Below, in pieces: positions 57,567 through 64,000 of a stretch of DNA of 64,000 nt. The number at the start of each line of letters is the position of its first letter. The stretch's first letter is position 1. Made by a program: the position numbers and the translations under genes. This stretch comes from Escherichia coli (lineage in GTDB: Bacteria; Pseudomonadota; Gammaproteobacteria; Enterobacterales; Enterobacteriaceae): NCBI RefSeq assembly GCF_017348835.2, contig NZ_CP071375.1; one strand, 5' to 3'. Below the pieces are notes generated by a model. It worked only from the letters and a program-made list of their open reading frames with translations. It ran no database searches and was not told the origin of the DNA.

Positions 57567-58154
57567 TTAACTGGTCCAGGTCGCGTCGAACTGTACGCTA
57601 ACGTCGCCGCTCCAGATGCCTTCCGGTAGAGTGCTGTAATCGGTTACTGCGGTGGTACCATTGGTGGTGCCGCTGATGATGGAGAAGGTGAAACCATCCT
57701 GTGCGGTGGTACGATTGCTGGCATTGTAACCGTTAGCCAGCGGGCTAAGGTTGCCGCCCAGTACGCCGTTGGCGGTATCGATCATCACGGTATCACCAGT
57801 TTTTTCGACTGCCGCGCCGTTATAATCCACGCCCACATTCAGTGTGGAACCTGAGGTATCCAACTGGGTTAATGTGTTGGTGATAAGACGTGAGGTCAGT
57901 TTAAAGGCGGTAGCCGTTGAGTCACCCTCGATAGCCACGTCAAATAGACCTTTCTGTGAGTTAAAACCTTTAATGCCTTCGGCATACTGGAACGCCAGGC
58001 TACCGAGTGGCGTCACAACCAGCTTACTGGTGGTGTCTTTTTTGGCTGTTGCCGACCAGGTCGCTACCGCCTGAGCTGTTACGTCAGCAGCCTGCGCCAC
58101 ACCTATACCGGTAAACACCGTTACCAGAGCTATTGCCAGAACCTTTTTTTTCAT
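57567..58154 (-). CDS. ecpA: E. coli common pilus major subunit EcpA (YagZ/MatB)
   Basis: 195 aa, [40 protein letters not shown]... Confidence 0.85.
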
Positions 58155-58228
58155 TGCTTTTCTTCCCGAGTTGAATTGAGGACATGAAGTCCCGGTGAGT
58201 CATTTTTTAAAACTAACTTGCCTGGAGT

Positions 58229-58840
<612 letters not shown>

Positions 58841-59854
58841 TTACAGGTACATTCAGTTTCTTTAGTAAATCGGAAGTAAATAAGATACGTAGCACATATC
58901 AATATAGGTTAAACGAGATTAAGTTTTAATTATTTCGATTAGGTTTAAATTTATGTTTTTTTCCTGATGAGTGTCAATATGTGAACAGAAAATGAATTCC
59001 ATGGTTAAGTCAATATTTACAAAAAATGAAAATATTGCTTTTTTGATAAGAAGAAAAAGACATTCAGTTTCATAAGGTTATTGGCAATATAACGTTCAAT
59101 TCTTACTTGCATTTTATATTAGCCAGGAACTTTGCTCTGAGGTGTTAGGAATAGTCTTAATGTGTTGTGTAATGGACTAGTAAAAAAACAAGTCTAAATG
59201 ATAAGAAATAGAATATAAAACTATCATGAGTCATAATTAAAGATGATTTGCCAATCAGCAAGGTGTTTTAATGGATTAACATGCCGCACAAAATGGTTAT
59301 GGGTGTTCATCCTAATAAGTGATGAAAAATTAAACAGGTGTAAGTACGTCATCTGTCCGGTAAGCCCCCTAAGAGCCAAATTAAGTGAAGTTAAACGAAG
59401 ACTGCCAGTTGTCACAGGAACGATGGCCTCTTTGCCAGGGCACTGCATTCAGTCATCTGTGCGCGTTACTCTGACTGGCACTCGAACGTCGGCGATGGGG
59501 TTACCGGTGGATCAGGCCGTTCCTGTGGCGTAAACGTTTTTATGTCAGTACCAACAGATTTACCACATTTATCATCTTAACAGTTTGAGTGTAAATGCAG
59601 GCTGCGTCGCAAAGGGAGGAAACTGAGTGGCGTGTTCAGTCTAAAAGAGGGTTGATGCCAGCATACATGGCGAAGCTGGTCAACAAGTCAACATTAATAT
59701 AATGGAATATTCGGAGAGAAACGTCAGGCAGTTGACCTTAAATGAACAGGAAGATACATCCCCAGGAAAATTAATGCTGGTGTAATAAATACACCAACAT
59801 TAATCCGGTCTGATTATTAATCAGACAAATATCGTTAATTCGTCGAATTTTAAA

Positions 59855-59995
59855 TCAACGTTTTTTCTTACGACCCTGAACGGCCTTAAAACGTGGATTA
59901 GATTTACAAATCACATACAGCCGTCCTTTTCGCTTCACAATCTGACAGTCTGGATGGCGTTCTTTTGCGGTACGCAGAGAGTTAAGGACTTTCAT
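59855..59995 (-). CDS. ykgO: Ribosomal protein L36 paralogue (zinc-independent)
   Basis: 46-aa product [46 protein letters not shown]; below the ORF-track size cut-off; start overlaps the ykgM stop. Confidence 0.85.
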
Positions 59996-60258
59996 CATGC
60001 CCCCTTTTTCGTGCTAACAAAACGACCAAAACGTTGGGTGAACCGTGCAACATTTCCTTCTGATGCCACTGTTCTCAGCTTCCCTGTATAGAACGGGTGC
60101 GATTTAGAAGAGACATCAATTGTCACGTATGGATACGTTACGCCATCCAGCTCAATCTCACGGTCTGTTTTGATAGTCGAGCCGATTTTAAAGTACTCAT
60201 CAACACTGGTGTCATGGAACACCACAGTACGATACTCAGGATGGATATTGGGTTTCAT
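59995..60258 (-). CDS. ykgM: Ribosomal protein L31 paralogue type B (zinc-independent)
   Basis: [60 protein letters not shown]... Confidence 0.9.
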
Positions 60259-60265
60259 CATTTTT

Positions 60266-60290
60266 ACCTGTTATGTTATAACATAACTGT
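60266..60290. promoter_or_regulatory. Putative Zur box upstream of ykgM-ykgO
   Basis: Palindrome GTTATGTTATAACATAAC immediately upstream of ykgM. Confidence 0.5.
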
Positions 60291-61195
60291 AAAGATACAT
60301 GCTCATCCGGATCATTTCAACACCCAATCCCTATGACCCTTTGTGGATGTGGAATTTCCGCAACGGGGAACTCTGGCATTGTTAACAGCCATTGGCGACG
60401 CTCCCATAAACGCCTGGATGAGTGATTGATGATAATTTCGCTGAGAGTATGGATTTTTCGAGAATGGAGGTTATCTCCACTTTACTGGCCGATGATTTAT
60501 CGCAGTATGATTGATTACCTGACAGCGTGTATTCCTCTCCCACGGATATAATAATTACTTACAAAAAGGGAGAGGATGCATATTTTAAATATCACTGAAG
60601 TGAACAGTTTATTGCCGTTATTAATAGAAGTGGAGAAATAAATAGGCGTATTCTACAATTGCGACAAAAACAACGATATTAATCAGTTTATGACTGATTT
60701 GTTGTACTTTATTCTCTTTCATTGGTACTTCCTCGCTTTAAAAAAGAGCGCACTTCGTAAGTGCCCTTATATAAATAACGAGTTTGGTCAACCAATTTTT
60801 TGACATGTATCACAAATTTGAATAGATGTATTACATCGGCTATCTTTTATTGCACCAACGTCATTGATATATGTCGCCTGAAGTCAGTTCCGGGAATGAG
60901 TCTGATCTCAAGACTGGCCCAGTCCTGGCGTTGATTGGCGCTGAGGAGCATATCGCATCTCATCATAATGTCGTATCTCCTGGGGTGTTATACAAGATAT
61001 CGTTGTTGGTAACCTGGGCGAGGAATTGAGCTCTATTAAACCGTCAACTATGCCGGATACATACTGGATTACACTGCAGGCACGCCTTATGAGAGAACGT
61101 GCCGCAGTGACGGGTTAATTATCTGAAAGAATTTGTGAGGCTGTATCGGTTACTCATTGATTTGATAGTTTTACTCTCGGGAGAGTAATAGATAT

Positions 61196-62338
61196 TTAAT
61201 CCATTAACGGAAACCAGCCAGTTCCTTTCGATGCCTGAATTTGATCCCATAGTTTATCCGGAATGGTTAATTCAGGAACAAGTTGTGGATTAAGGGTTGT
61301 TTGAATTTCATGGCCTCTACCTGATTCAGCTAAAGTCACCCATTCTGGATTTATCACCAGCCCTTTACCGATCGCAACAAGTGGCAGGCCAGTGGAAATT
61401 GCTTCTTGTGCCTGAGACGGTGTGCGTATTTTACCTGCAGCGATTACCGGCACTCTGCCTGCAATATGATTTAAAATCAATTCAATAGTTCGGGGGCCAT
61501 TTGGCGACTCAACAGGGTAGCTATCGTTAATACTGACCAGCGAGGTATGTATATACGAAATACCGGATGAAATGAGCCGATCAAGGAGTTTATAAGTATC
61601 CTCTATCCGCAGCCCCCCTGTTGCAGATTCTTCAGGAGATATTCTGTAACCGATGGCAAAGGGCTTTGTCGCATATTCATAGACTACATTTTTTACTTCC
61701 TGTAATACGGCCAGCGGGAAGCGCATACGTCCTTCGAGATCTCCTCCCCATCGGTCATTACGCTGGTTAAATAGAGGGGAGAAGAAATTCTGTAGAAGGA
61801 ATCCGTGCGCACCATGAAGTTCAATGCCATCAAAACCTGCTTTAATCGCCCTTTTTGTGACATCTCCGAATGCTCTAATGGTTTCCTGAATTTCGTTTTC
61901 AGTCATTTCCCTGCTTTGTACCACTCTCTTCATAAAGTCACCAGATTTTACGCTTGATGCGCTGGCACTAATAACATCGTTATTTGGTACAAGCTCCGGG
62001 ATGGCTTTATTACCGGCGTGGAAAATCTGCAAAATAGCCGGAGCACCGCCACTTTTGGCTGCCGCTGCTAACTTTTCAAGGCTGTTAATGAAACGGTCGT
62101 CATACGCGGCAAATTCATGAGTAAACCCAATGCCGCTTGGCGTGACATAGGTACATCCTGTTATTACTAAACCAACATTTTGTGAGCGACGTTTATAAAA
62201 TTCGAGTTCTTGCTCAGAGATGGTTCCATCAGGATTCGCTGACCAGGTCGTCATAGGAGCCATAACGATACGATTACGTAGCTTTATTTTTTCTGTCAGC
62301 ATAAAAGGAGAAAACAATGATGGGTGTTTATTTGTCAT
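61196..62338 (-). CDS. Old Yellow Enzyme-family NADH:flavin oxidoreductase
   Basis: 380 aa; TIM-barrel OYE motifs (MAPMTTW...; HGAHGFLLQNFFSPLFNQRNDRWGG). Confidence 0.7.
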   Translation of the reverse strand: MTNKHPSLFSPFMLTEKIKLRNRIVMAPMTTWSANPDGTISEQELEFYKRRSQNVGLVITGCTYVTPSGIGFTHEFAAYDDRFINSLEKLAAAAKSGGAPAILQIFHAGNKAIPELVPNNDVISASASSVKSGDFMKRVVQSREMTENEIQETIRAFGDVTKRAIKAGFDGIELHGAHGFLLQNFFSPLFNQRNDRWGGDLEGRMRFPLAVLQEVKNVVYEYATKPFAIGYRISPEESATGGLRIEDTYKLLDRLISSGISYIHTSLVSINDSYPVESPNGPRTIELILNHIAGRVPVIAAGKIRTPSQAQEAISTGLPLVAIGKGLVINPEWVTLAESGRGHEIQTTLNPQLVPELTIPDKLWDQIQASKGTGWFPLMD

Positions 62339-62582
62339 AACAATACCTCAAATGTTTATCTGATTTTGATGCGTATGTTTTAACTGGTTAGTTGTTGCCA
62401 GCTTTGGAATCAAGATTTCTGGCTTTATTTATAATCCCTTCAAAGGGTTTCTAATAATCTTAATAATTGAGTTGCTGCTTTTTTGTTTCTTTAATGAAAT
62501 TTCTTTTTGAGTAATTTTATTATTGTTGTGTAGTCAATAAAGGATAAATATAAGGGAGATAAGGAATCTCCCTGTAAAATTA

Positions 62583-63503
62583 TTACAAATGTGTTTTATA
62601 AAAAGGAATTAATTTATCGAGTGCCTGTTTCACAGGTTCTGGCTTATCATACAGGTCGTAATGTGAATAACCTTCAACCACGACCAGCTCTTTATGTTTT
62701 GAGGCAGCGCGGCCAATAATTTCGCAGCCGTCACGGTAGGCACCAAATGCGCCCACTCTATCGCCCACCACAACCATTATTGGTTGAGTTAACAGCACTT
62801 CTGCAAGATGAAATGCATCCCAACCCACGGCAACAGTCTGATGTGAGAATAGCGAACGATTTACCCCATTAGGTGCACAGCCTCGTGGCGAACGATAATA
62901 TTCTGTGGCTTCAAAAAGGTCTATTTCTGTTAATCCCGCTTCAAGAGCTGCATCCGGAGAAGAGGGGAGTAAATCATCTACGCGAAGTTTTGCGCCGTTA
63001 GCTTCGTCTGTTCTTTGTTGCGCCATTGCTTCGAGTGCTCCGATAGGATTAAACGCTGTAAATCCCTCACGCATAAGACGCCCGTAGTTTGCACCCGTGA
63101 CAGTACCAATAGCTTTAATTCGACGTTCTGTCATTGCGGCATTAATGGCATATCCACCTCCACCACAAATACCCAGTACACCAATACGCCCGGCATCAAC
63201 GTAAGGTAAGCTGGTAAGGTAATCAACGACAATGCTGAAGTCTTTTACTCGCATTGTTGGATCTTCCAGATAACGCGGTTCCCCACCGCTGCTTCCCTGA
63301 AAACTGGCATCAAAAGCAATGACGATAAAGCCAGCTTTTGCCAGGGCGGCACCATACACACTACCCGATGTCTGTTCTTTGCAGCTTCCAATTGGATGGG
63401 CGCTGATAATGGCAGGATACTTTTTTTCACTATTAAAATCGTCAGGGAAATAGATATCAGCAGCTATATCCCAGTAAGTGTGTTTTATCGAAACAGTTTT
63501 CAT
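62583..63503 (-). CDS. Alpha/beta-hydrolase-fold protein (dienelactone-hydrolase-like)
   Basis: 306 aa; nucleophile-elbow-like GICGGGGYAI. Confidence 0.55.
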   Translation of the reverse strand: MKTVSIKHTYWDIAADIYFPDDFNSEKKYPAIISAHPIGSCKEQTSGSVYGAALAKAGFIVIAFDASFQGSSGGEPRYLEDPTMRVKDFSIVVDYLTSLPYVDAGRIGVLGICGGGGYAINAAMTERRIKAIGTVTGANYGRLMREGFTAFNPIGALEAMAQQRTDEANGAKLRVDDLLPSSPDAALEAGLTEIDLFEATEYYRSPRGCAPNGVNRSLFSHQTVAVGWDAFHLAEVLLTQPIMVVVGDRVGAFGAYRDGCEIIGRAASKHKELVVVEGYSHYDLYDKPEPVKQALDKLIPFYKTHL

Positions 63504-63659
63504 TTCAAGCTCCGGGGATTTGCCTAAACAGATTTAAATATCATTTCTATTATCCGCAACTGGCATTCGTGTTCATATCGAGAACGGCGTAATAGTATGA
63601 CTTGTATTGGTTATCATCAATGGTCTAATATCTATCACAGTGTTAAGTTAAGGTTTACA

Positions 63660-64000
63660 ATGATGAAAATAGAGCCTTCAATTTTGCCTTCTCTTGCCTG
63701 GTTTGCGCTTATTGTTCGTGCCGGCAGTTTTTCCAGAGCCGCTTCTGAAATGGGTATTACGCGGGCCGCATTGTCCCAGAATTTAAAATCTCTTGAGGAA
63801 CGTCTTAACACCAAGCTGATATACCGTACGACCCGCAATATGTCGCTTACTGAGGAAGGACAGCGTCTGTATGAAGTGCTGGTGTCGGCTTTGGGGCAAA
63901 TTGATGATGCTTTGAAAGATGTTGGTGATACCCAACTTGAACCTACAGGCCTGTTGAGAATAAATTCCTCCCGTGTTGCAGCACGGATGCTTGTTGAGCC
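63660..64000 (+). CDS. LysR-family transcriptional regulator, N-terminal part (runs off the window end)
   Basis: N-terminal HTH FSRAASEMGITRAALSQNLKSLEERLNTKLIYRTTRNMSLTEEG; divergent from the hydrolase gene. Confidence 0.7.
   Translation, partial: MMKIEPSILPSLAWFALIVRAGSFSRAASEMGITRAALSQNLKSLEERLNTKLIYRTTRNMSLTEEGQRLYEVLVSALGQIDDALKDVGDTQLEPTGLLRINSSRVAARMLVE

What the first reader, a model, noticed from the sequence alone, without database searches (positions are those of the whole stretch)
61196..64000. OYE reductase, hydrolase and LysR regulator trio is not the gene set I expect after ykgM
An Old Yellow Enzyme reductase and an alpha/beta hydrolase are transcribed divergently from a LysR-type regulator. 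This is a common layout for a small electrophile or xenobiotic detoxification module under LysR control, and it occupies the position where K-12 has other genes (eaeH/ykgA region, as I recall).
Basis: partly seen in the sequence, partly recalled or inferred. Interest (0 to 1): 0.35.

Follow-up and report, generated by a model that had tools for sequence, protein, structure and literature searches.

The report
Accessory reductase–hydrolase–regulator genes deleted in K-12
The three genes are real, intact, long-annotated E. coli accessory genes of unknown substrate, belonging to a six-gene segment that about 40% of E. coli strains carry and that K-12 lost in a 6.3-kb deletion, so the finding is correct but ordinary.

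Summary
Window 61196-62338 (-) encodes a 380-aa Old Yellow Enzyme family flavoprotein. Window 62583-63503 (-) encodes a 306-aa alpha/beta hydrolase. Window 63660 to the window end (+) is the start of a divergent LysR-type regulator.

The window is E. coli, 100% identical to strain PE164. The trio does not replace K-12 genes. It is the left half of a six-gene segment (OYE, hydrolase, LysR1, LysR2, two aldo/keto reductases) lying between ykgR and fdeC/eaeH.

K-12 carries a clean 6,307-bp deletion of this segment. The last ~30 OYE codons survive there as the annotated pseudogene ykgP. Of 5,426 complete genomes, 2,112 carry the trio and 2,826 carry the exact K-12 junction.

All six genes are under purifying selection (dN/dS 0.04-0.17).

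Orthologous modules on a Klebsiella plasmid, in a Citrobacter chromosome and in Paraburkholderia read LysR <-> (YcjY-like hydrolase)-hydrolase-NAD(P)H-binding SDR-OYE. The E. coli trio is therefore a trimmed copy of a mobile, conserved operon.

Its chemistry is untested. The most likely role is LysR-controlled processing of an ester- or lactone-type electrophile.

Two unusual features: the hydrolase has a Cys nucleophile, and the OYE has Phe where the canonical Tyr proton donor sits. Interest is low.

The parts
61196..62338 (-). OYE-family FMN oxidoreductase gene, 380 aa (WP_000182335, 'NADH-dependent flavin oxidoreductase'). Motif H175-G-A-H178-G-F180.
   Evidence: ORF. Pfam PF00724 at 260 bits covers residues 7-342. 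It falls below every NCBIfam equivalog cut-off. Closest solved structure is 3L5A, uncharacterised. Family alignment; residue numbering.
61196..61287 (-). The 3' end of the OYE gene (stop plus ~30 codons) that survives in K-12 as pseudogene ykgP. The left breakpoint of the K-12 deletion lies after 61287.
   Evidence: K-12 annotation. Alignment and exact junction. Megablast matches in genomes lacking the trio stop at query position 288.
62339..62582 (-). AT-rich hydrolase-OYE spacer of 244 bp. It is 171 bp in E2348/69 and 139 bp in Escherichia sp. E1V33, through nested indels. No detectable remnant of the SDR gene found here in relatives.
   Evidence: Alignment. The 73-bp extra segment is single copy and present in 798 genomes. 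Remnant search gave only noise. No Rfam match.
62553..62573 (-). Terminator-like hairpin (AGGGAGAT-TCCTT-ATCTCCCT followed by TATATTTATC), starting 10 nt after the hydrolase stop.
   Evidence: Scan. Conserved in three Escherichia lineages. Present in the MFE fold. Function not shown.
62583..63503 (-). YcjY/PA2218-family alpha/beta hydrolase gene ('hydA'), 306 aa. Nucleophile elbow is G-I-C113-G-G; His281 is invariant.
   Evidence: ORF. PDB 5XB6 at 228 bits and 2HDW at 155 bits, with Cys aligned to the nucleophile Ser of serine hydrolases. Invariant columns. Numbering.
63504..63659 (.). Divergent control region of 156 bp. Contains a T-N11-A dyad TATCACAGTGTTA (63633-63645) and ATTG-N8-CAAT (63606-63621), both inside a block nearly identical in the Klebsiella plasmid ortholog.
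   Evidence: Alignment A5. The exact box is unique in 33 kb of L001. Binding is inferred, not shown.
63660..64000 (+). First 113 codons of LysR-type regulator 'LysR1' (308 aa in full), cut by the window end.
   Evidence: Sequence. Full gene in L001 17661-18587. HTH_1 and LysR_substrate domains. 84.5% identical to the regulator of the Klebsiella plasmid module and 51% to the Paraburkholderia one.

Best explanation
The trio is the left half of a six-gene, about 6.4-kb accessory segment of the E. coli chromosome. The order is ykgR | OYE, hydrolase <-> LysR1, LysR2, AKR1, AKR2 | fdeC/eaeH. The segment is polymorphic in the species. K-12 and about half of sequenced strains carry one and the same 6,307-bp deletion, running from inside the OYE gene to 15 nt upstream of the AKR2 start codon. 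That deletion leaves the OYE tail as pseudogene ykgP.

The trio itself is a trimmed copy of a conserved, horizontally mobile operon: LysR <-> (YcjY-like hydrolase)-hydrolase-NAD(P)H-binding atypical SDR-OYE. That operon is found on a Klebsiella IncF plasmid, in Citrobacter and in Paraburkholderia.

Inferred mechanism. LysR1 binds the T-N11-A dyad in the 156-bp divergent region and, in response to a small-molecule ligand, controls the hydrolase promoter. It may also control the OYE gene by read-through of a weak terminator. The Cys113/His281 hydrolase cleaves an ester, lactone or thioester bond. The FMN-dependent OYE uses NAD(P)H to reduce an activated C=C, quinone or nitro group of the same compound or its product. 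The most specific guess is an unsaturated lactone or ester of plant or soil origin, handled in a way analogous to dienelactone hydrolase followed by maleylacetate reduction.

Shown here: gene content, the deletion polymorphism, synteny, purifying selection and active-site residues. Inferred: regulation, substrate and coupling of the two enzymes.
For: Gene calls and domains.

Identity and full context in strains PE164 and E2348/69.

K-12 map with ykgP, and the exact junction (deletion of L001 15289-21595; 1-nt microhomology; no IS).

Frequencies among 5,426 genomes: trio in 2,112, K-12 junction in 2,826, LysR2-AKR1-AKR2 in 1,885.

Purifying selection on all six genes, dN/dS 0.04-0.17.

Conserved module:
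- Klebsiella variicola plasmid: LysR (84.5% identical) <-> hydA (90.5%) - SDR - OYE (80.8%), beside a Tn3 transposase and IS1.
- Citrobacter: PgrR-like <-> YcjY-like - hydA (87%) - SDR - OYE (82%).
- Three Paraburkholderia species: LysR1-like (51%) <-> hydB - hydA (63%) - SDR - OYE (56%).
- E. cloacae plasmid: YcjY-like hydrolase and OYE 12 bp apart.

Active sites: Cys113 and His281 invariant in the hydrolase. The His175/His178 pair is present in the OYE and its closest clade; more distant family members have Asn in place of His178.

Conserved control block with a T-N11-A dyad.

Weak links to lactone hydrolases: Pfam DLH at 25 bits, NCBIfam UilS lactonase at 75 bits over the N-terminal half only. 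UilS is an experimentally shown AHL lactonase (PMC11633161).
Against: No expression, binding or enzyme data exist for these genes. A literature search on the O157 locus tags found only a SNP-typing paper.

In E. coli a conserved terminator-like hairpin and a long, indel-rich spacer lie between the hydrolase and the OYE, and no second LysR-box copy lies upstream of the OYE. Co-regulation of the OYE is therefore uncertain.

E. coli lacks the SDR gene that sits between the two enzymes in relatives, so the pathway may be incomplete or altered.

The OYE has Phe180 where YqjM/TOYE-type enzymes have the Tyr proton donor. Classical ene-reductase chemistry is thus not assured.

Firmicute OYE homologs (53-60% identity) occur without the hydrolase.

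The paralogous K-12 unit pgrR-ycjY has been assigned to peptidoglycan recycling (PMC5934670).
Confidence: 0.6

Rival explanations
1. The hydrolase is a peptidase or amidase of peptidoglycan recycling, like the role proposed for its K-12 paralog YcjY in the PgrR regulon (ycjY-ymjDC-mpaA). The OYE is then an unrelated neighbour.
For: The best Pfam match is Peptidase_S15, over the N-terminal part. YcjY is 41% identical. LysR2 is 47% and LysR1 31% identical to PgrR. The PgrR regulon is listed as peptidoglycan recycling in PMC5934670.
Against: The mpaA adjacency in K-12 follows deletions. ymjD and ymjC are remnants of a hydA-like gene and an SDR gene. Nissle 1917 has an intact SDR and a 290-bp gap before mpaA. 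The Citrobacter, Klebsiella-plasmid and Paraburkholderia operons contain reductases and no cell-wall genes. The nucleophile is Cys, not the Ser of S9/S15 peptidases. No YcjY enzyme activity turned up in the papers read.
Confidence: 0.1
2. The three genes are separate transcription units with unrelated functions, adjacent only through shared history. There is no 'module' in E. coli.
For: A conserved terminator-like hairpin sits right after the hydrolase stop. The spacer is 139-244 bp and tolerates indels. No LysR-box copy lies before the OYE. Firmicute OYE homologs lack the hydrolase.
Against: The order hydrolase-(SDR)-OYE beside a LysR gene is kept across Gamma- and Betaproteobacteria and on plasmids, despite 44-50% protein divergence. 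In O157:H7 the trio is kept intact while the neighbouring LysR2-AKR part is lost.
Confidence: 0.15
3. The segment is a recent insertion (genomic island) in the window's strain, and the K-12 arrangement is ancestral.
For: GC content is 46% for the segment and 43% for the trio, against 51% for the whole window. Orthologs sit on plasmids next to Tn3 and IS1. No hit was found in the representative genomes of other named Escherichia species (the scan needs exact peptide words).
Against: K-12 retains 92 nt of the OYE 3' end in frame with the full gene, and its junction falls inside that gene. The segment lies at the same site in phylogenetically distant E. coli (E2348/69, O157:H7, PE164) and in the divergent Escherichia sp. 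E1V33, with dS up to about 0.2. No integrase, tRNA or flanking repeats were seen. An older acquisition by an Escherichia ancestor is not excluded and does not conflict with the best explanation.
Confidence: 0.03
4. The genes are decaying leftovers without function in E. coli.
For: E. coli lacks two genes of the fuller operon (hydB and the SDR). Half of all strains have lost the whole segment. O157 has lost part of it.
Against: All ORFs are intact in four lineages, with dN/dS 0.04-0.17. Catalytic residues are conserved.
Confidence: 0.05

Closest known systems
E. coli K-12 pgrR (ycjZ) <-> ycjY-ymjD-ymjC(-mpaA) unit
   Same: A paralogous layout: a LysR-type regulator divergent from a YcjY-family Cys hydrolase. 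YcjY is 41% identical to the window hydrolase; PgrR is 31% identical to LysR1 and 47% to LysR2. In Citrobacter and on the Klebsiella plasmid the PgrR/YcjY orthologs sit in or next to the same operon as the window's hydrolase and OYE orthologs.
   Different: It is a different locus, near tpx/mppA. It has no OYE. K-12 keeps only fragments of the hydA-like gene (ymjD) and the SDR gene (ymjC), whereas Nissle 1917 has an intact SDR. The literature assigns it to peptidoglycan recycling, which nothing in the window locus suggests.
Plasmid-borne module of Klebsiella variicola KV1 (NZ_CP103422): LysR <-> alpha/beta hydrolase - SDR - NADH-dependent flavin oxidoreductase
   Same: Orthologous: 84.5%, 90.5% and 80.8% protein identity for regulator, hydrolase and OYE. 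Same order and orientation. The control region contains a near-identical block.
   Different: It carries a 211-aa NAD_binding_10 SDR gene between hydrolase and OYE that E. coli lacks. It lies on an IncF plasmid beside a Tn3 transposase and IS1. It is also uncharacterised.
YqjM/TOYE-type ('thermophilic-like', class II) Old Yellow Enzymes, and E. coli NemA
   Same: The same FMN TIM-barrel family (PF00724). The His-x-x-His substrate-binding pair is present, as in YqjM/TOYE.
   Different: Only about 30-35% identity. Scores are far below the NamA (180 vs 431 bits) and NemA (119 vs 403 bits) cut-offs. Phe180 replaces the Tyr proton donor. There is an extra ~40-residue C-terminal extension, shared with the closest structure 3L5A (uncharacterised, S. 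aureus). nemA is controlled by the TetR-type regulator NemR, not a LysR regulator.
Dienelactone hydrolase plus maleylacetate reductase under LysR control (clc/tfd chlorocatechol operons)
   Same: A working analogy only: a Cys-nucleophile alpha/beta hydrolase, an NAD(P)H-dependent C=C reduction step, and a divergent LysR regulator. There is a weak Pfam DLH match (25 bits vs a cut-off of 21, N-terminal half).
   Different: No dioxygenase or cycloisomerase genes are present. The reductase here is an OYE, not an iron-type alcohol-dehydrogenase-family maleylacetate reductase. The hydrolase belongs to the YcjY/PA2218 clade, not to the ClcD/TfdE enzymes. The comparison rests on established knowledge of those pathways, not on a test here.

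Membership tests
Old Yellow Enzyme family (Pfam PF00724 Oxidored_FMN) | Full-length match to the FMN-binding TIM-barrel domain | tested here: met
   260 bits against a cut-off of 27; residues 7-342 align to profile positions 1-340 of 342.
Old Yellow Enzyme family (Pfam PF00724 Oxidored_FMN) | His/His or His/Asn pair that binds the substrate's electron-withdrawing group | tested here: met
   H175 and H178 lie in ELHGAHGF, aligned to EIHAAHGY of TOYE (3KRZ). H175 is invariant in 23 family members; position 178 is His or Asn.
Old Yellow Enzyme family (Pfam PF00724 Oxidored_FMN) | Tyr proton donor two residues after the second His/Asn | tested here: not met
   Phe180 in E. coli, Citrobacter, Paraburkholderia and the closest clusters. 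More distant family members with HGANxY keep the Tyr.
Old Yellow Enzyme family (Pfam PF00724 Oxidored_FMN) | FMN binding and NAD(P)H-dependent reduction of activated alkenes | not testable with these tools
   Needs purified protein.
NamA/YqjM and NemA equivalogs (NCBIfam NF010047, NF007899) | Score above the curated cut-off | tested here: not met
   180 vs 431 bits and 119 vs 403 bits. The protein is not an ortholog of either.
YcjY/PA2218 clade of alpha/beta hydrolases | Full-length sequence similarity to YcjY (PDB 5XB6) and PA2218 (PDB 2HDW) | tested here: met
   228 bits over residues 12-304 and 155 bits over residues 12-306. 41% identity to K-12 YcjY.
YcjY/PA2218 clade of alpha/beta hydrolases | G-x-C-x-G nucleophile elbow and a conserved His | tested here: met
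   G-I-C113-G-G and H281 are invariant in 8 hydA/hydB sequences. The Cys aligns with the Ser of serine hydrolases. The acid residue was not assigned, because the AlphaFold model was only mediocre (pLDDT 66.5).
Dienelactone hydrolase family (Pfam PF01738) | Match above the gathering score over the whole domain | tested here: inconclusive
   25 bits against a cut-off of 21, but only residues 28-131 align to profile positions 12-123 of 217.
Dienelactone hydrolase family (Pfam PF01738) | Hydrolysis of dienelactones or other lactones | not testable with these tools
   Needs an enzyme assay.
LysR-type transcriptional regulators | N-terminal HTH_1 plus C-terminal LysR_substrate domain | tested here: met
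   69 and 103 bits on the full-length protein from L001. Only the first 113 residues lie in the window.
LysR-type transcriptional regulators | Divergent target gene with a T-N11-A dyad in the shared control region | tested here: met
   156-bp divergent region. TATCACAGTGTTA at 63633-63645 lies inside a block conserved with the Klebsiella plasmid ortholog. Actual binding was not tested.
Integrative genomic island | Integrase, tRNA or attachment-site repeats at the borders | tested here: not met
   No integrase or tRNA is annotated in the flanks in PE164 or E2348/69. The K-12 junction shows 1-nt microhomology only.

The most novel reading that the evidence does not exclude
The trio, together with the pgrR-ycjY(-SDR) locus elsewhere in the chromosome, could represent the two halves of one uncharacterised, horizontally mobile four-enzyme pathway. 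That pathway would comprise two Cys-nucleophile YcjY-type hydrolases, an NAD(P)H-binding atypical SDR, and a Tyr-less OYE, and would act on a plant- or soil-derived unsaturated lactone or ester. If so, the 'peptidoglycan recycling' label of K-12 PgrR/YcjY would be a by-product of deletions that fused ycjY to mpaA. The Phe180 OYE clade would use a non-canonical proton donor.
Probability: 0.25. Interest if true: 0.4.

Novelty: new member of a known kind. Interest (0 to 1): 0.15.

Why it matters
Mostly as housekeeping. It explains a K-12 pseudogene (ykgP) and shows that the K-12 map between ykgM and eaeH is the deleted form of a common E. coli accessory segment.

It gives modest value to enzymologists. 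The OYE belongs to a clade with no characterised member and lacks the canonical Tyr proton donor. Its hydrolase partner has a Cys nucleophile and a solved but function-less paralog, YcjY.

The conserved synteny offers a concrete starting point for assigning a substrate to YcjY-family hydrolases, and for re-examining the PgrR regulon annotation.

It opens no long-standing question.

Tried and rejected
1. I looked for a remnant of the SDR gene in the E. coli hydrolase-OYE spacer. A 30-aa tblastn hit with the Citrobacter protein (E 1.3, or 0.008 in a tiny search space) was not reproduced with the 91%-identical Klebsiella protein, and blastn-short gave only noise. Rejected.

2. I tested whether the 73-bp extra segment of the spacer is a repeat element. 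It is single copy in every genome that has it.

3. An Rfam scan of 58000-64000 at E <= 0.1 found nothing.

4. I searched for a second copy of the candidate LysR box upstream of the OYE or the AKR genes. There was none beyond chance.

5. The search for homologous proteins with the OYE returned only near-identical E. coli proteins and gave no distant context. One context look-up, for P0121, gave a 3.3-kb contig with an AraC-type neighbour only.

6. The AlphaFold model of the hydrolase, built from an 8-sequence alignment, reached only pLDDT 66.5. I did not use it for fold searches or for assigning the triad acid.

7. Literature searches on ykgP, the ECs0331-0333 tags and YcjY gave no functional data.

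8. I did not establish whether the OYE belongs to 'class III' (YqiG/LacER). A profile of the family scores PDB 8E5H no better than YqjM, and I could not confirm what 8E5H is.
Full report

Yes.
- ORF 61196-62338 on the minus strand is 380 aa. It matches Pfam Oxidored_FMN from end to end (E 4.8e-77).
- ORF 62583-63503 on the minus strand is 306 aa and is an alpha/beta hydrolase.
- A LysR-type regulator starts at 63660 on the plus strand and is cut by the window end. Its full form is 308 aa, with HTH_1 and LysR_substrate domains.

The window is Escherichia coli. Bases 61000-64000 are 100% identical to strain PE164, and RefSeq annotates the same three genes there.

**2. What lies at this position in K-12 and in other strains?**

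In PE164 and in EPEC E2348/69 the gene order is:
- ecp operon, ecpR, ykgL, ykgO, ykgM, ykgR;
- then OYE and hydrolase (both minus strand);
- then LysR1 and LysR2 (both plus strand);
- then two aldo/keto reductases (minus strand);
- then fdeC (the intact form of K-12 eaeH), a ykgA-type regulator and rclCBA.

K-12 has ykgM, ykgR, the pseudogene ykgP, then eaeH'.

Aligning the two shows that K-12 lacks L001 15289-21595, which is 6,307 bp. The left breakpoint is after window base 61287, inside the OYE gene. The right breakpoint is 15 nt upstream of the start codon of the second aldo/keto reductase (AKR2). The junction shows 1-nt microhomology and no IS. ykgP is therefore the last ~30 codons of this OYE gene.

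The idea that the trio sits where K-12 has eaeH/ykgA is not right: those genes follow in both kinds of strain.

**3. How common is each form?**

Counts are out of 5,426 complete E. coli genomes.

| Form | Genomes |
|---|---|
| Trio present (>= 80% coverage) | 2,112 |
| LysR2-AKR1-AKR2 also present | 1,885 |
| Exact K-12 junction intact | 2,826 |

O157:H7 Sakai shows a third allele. The trio is kept (ECs_0331 to ECs_0333), L001 18598-21020 is replaced by 842 bp of other sequence, and an ISEc8 lies between ykgM and the OYE.

The segment is at the same site in the divergent Escherichia sp. E1V33.

All six genes are intact in the lineages compared. Pairwise dN/dS is 0.04-0.17 wherever dS exceeds 0.02. 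Where retained, they are working genes and not debris.

**4. Is the trio a functional unit?**

Relatives say it derives from one.
- A Klebsiella variicola IncF plasmid carries, next to a Tn3 transposase and IS1, the order LysR <-> hydrolase - SDR - OYE. Identities to the window proteins are 84.5% (LysR1), 90.5% (hydrolase) and 80.8% (OYE). The SDR is 211 aa with an NAD_binding_10 domain.
- Citrobacter sp. Cu233 has a PgrR ortholog <-> YcjY ortholog - hydrolase (87%) - SDR - OYE (82%).
- Three Paraburkholderia species have a LysR1-like regulator (51%) <-> YcjY-like hydrolase - hydrolase (63%) - SDR - OYE (56%).
- An Enterobacter cloacae plasmid has a YcjY-like hydrolase and an OYE (53%) 12 bp apart, after a LysR gene.

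The pairing of hydrolase and OYE beside a LysR gene is thus kept across two proteobacterial classes and on mobile DNA.

E. coli lacks the SDR gene. Instead it has a 139-244-bp AT-rich spacer with nested indels. The spacer begins with a conserved terminator-like hairpin right after the hydrolase stop. I found no credible SDR remnant in it. Whether the OYE is still co-transcribed with the hydrolase is open.

**5. The proteins**

*OYE.*
- It scores well below the cut-offs for NamA/YqjM and NemA.
- Its nearest solved structure is the uncharacterised S. aureus entry 3L5A.
- Outside Escherichia, Citrobacter and Klebsiella, its nearest relatives (53-60% identity) are in Bacillales, Paraburkholderia, rhizobia and Bacteroidota, often on plasmids.
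- It has the His175/His178 pair, but Phe180 where YqjM/TOYE-type enzymes have the Tyr proton donor. The closest clade shares this; more distant members read HGANxY.

*Hydrolase.*
- It is a paralog (41% identity) of E. coli YcjY (PDB 5XB6) and a relative of P. aeruginosa PA2218 (2HDW). Both have solved structures but no assigned reaction.
- The nucleophile elbow is G-I-C113-G-G. Cys113 and His281 are invariant in eight family members.
- Links to lactone hydrolases are weak: a partial Pfam DLH match, and a partial match to the UilS acyl-homoserine lactonase model (PMC11633161).

*Control region.* The 156-bp divergent region contains a block nearly identical between E. coli and the Klebsiella plasmid. 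That block holds a T-N11-A dyad, TATCACAGTGTTA (63633-63645), and ATTG-N8-CAAT (63606-63621).

**6. Most likely mechanism**

This is inference. LysR1 binds the dyad and, with a small-molecule ligand, controls the hydrolase promoter and possibly the OYE by read-through. The Cys hydrolase opens an ester, lactone or thioester. The flavoprotein reduces an activated double bond, quinone or nitro group with NAD(P)H.

The occurrence of the fuller operon in plant- and soil-associated bacteria points to a plant or soil compound. An unsaturated lactone is the most specific guess. I hold that specific guess at about 0.2 and the general reading at about 0.6.

Rivals:
- a cell-wall recycling role, by analogy with PgrR-YcjY (0.1);
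- unrelated neighbouring genes (0.15);
- a recent insertion rather than a K-12 deletion (0.03);
- non-functional leftovers (0.05).

**7. A by-product**

The K-12 locus pgrR <-> ycjY-ymjD-ymjC-mpaA is a second, differently decayed copy of the same operon type.
- YmjD (21 aa) matches the N-terminus of the hydA-type hydrolase (61% over 18 aa).
- YmjC (60 aa) matches the N-terminus of the SDR (54% over 46 aa, E 1e-12).
- Nissle 1917 has the SDR intact at that locus: 212 aa, 65% identical to the Paraburkholderia one.

Strains such as E2348/69-type B2 isolates may therefore encode all four enzyme types of the ancestral operon, split over two loci.

**8. Verdict**

The finding is correct as an observation and ordinary in kind. 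It is a well-annotated, uncharacterised accessory segment whose absence from K-12 is a simple deletion already flagged by the ykgP pseudogene. No published functional work on these genes turned up.

Novelty: a new (uncharacterised) member of a known kind. Interest: 0.15.

Noticed in passing
L033 6681-6934 (K-12 ymjC, ymjD); L038 2831-3469 (Nissle 1917): The K-12 'genes' ymjD (21 aa) and ymjC (60 aa), downstream of ycjY, are N-terminal remnants of a hydA-type hydrolase and of an NAD_binding_10 SDR. Nissle 1917 and many other strains carry the intact 212-aa SDR there. The K-12-like state covers 3,923 of 5,426 genomes. The ycjY-mpaA 'operon' of the PgrR regulon thus arose by deletions.
   Followed up: partly
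window 61801-61809 (codons for H178-G-F180 of the OYE): The OYE and its closest clade have HGAHGF, with Phe where YqjM/TOYE-type OYEs have the catalytic Tyr. More distant members of the same family read HGANxY. The alternative proton donor is unknown.
   Followed up: partly
L032 10359-12800 and 16966-17807 (O157:H7 Sakai): O157:H7 Sakai has an ISEc8 inserted between ykgM and the OYE gene. It also has an 842-bp replacement (containing ECs_0334) that removes LysR2, AKR1 and part of AKR2 while leaving the trio intact. This is a third allele of the region.
   Followed up: partly
window 62360-62435: A ~73-bp segment with two small hairpins is present in the hydrolase-OYE spacer of the window strain and O157, but absent from E2348/69 and Escherichia sp. 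E1V33. It is single copy in the 798 genomes that have it, so it is not a dispersed repeat.
   Followed up: yes
L008 1158-2006, L029 5370-6218, L023 3207-3995: In Bacillus and Neobacillus genomes, a homolog of the segment's second aldo/keto reductase (52-65% identical to AKR2) lies within a few kb of the OYE homolog. This hints that the OYE and AKR halves of the E. coli segment may be functionally linked.
   Followed up: no
L003 (whole contig), L030: A 4.4-kb contig filed under a Collinsella sp. MAG is 98-99% identical at protein level to the E. coli LysR2-LysR1-hydrolase-OYE stretch. A 462-bp Terrisporobacter contig carries the OYE C-terminal end (ykgP-like; residues 356-380, 92% identity). 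Both look like E. coli contamination of those assemblies.
   Followed up: no
L001 22146-26399 and 27666-28363 (beyond the window end): In strain PE164, fdeC is annotated as a pseudogene with an internal stop, and an IS1 lies between the ykgA-type regulator and the next aldo/keto reductase. E2348/69 has fdeC intact.
   Followed up: no
L005 2876-3217: In Citrobacter sp. Cu233 the operon lies next to a 113-aa fragment with an integrase Arm-DNA-binding domain. This is consistent with arrival on a mobile element.
   Followed up: no
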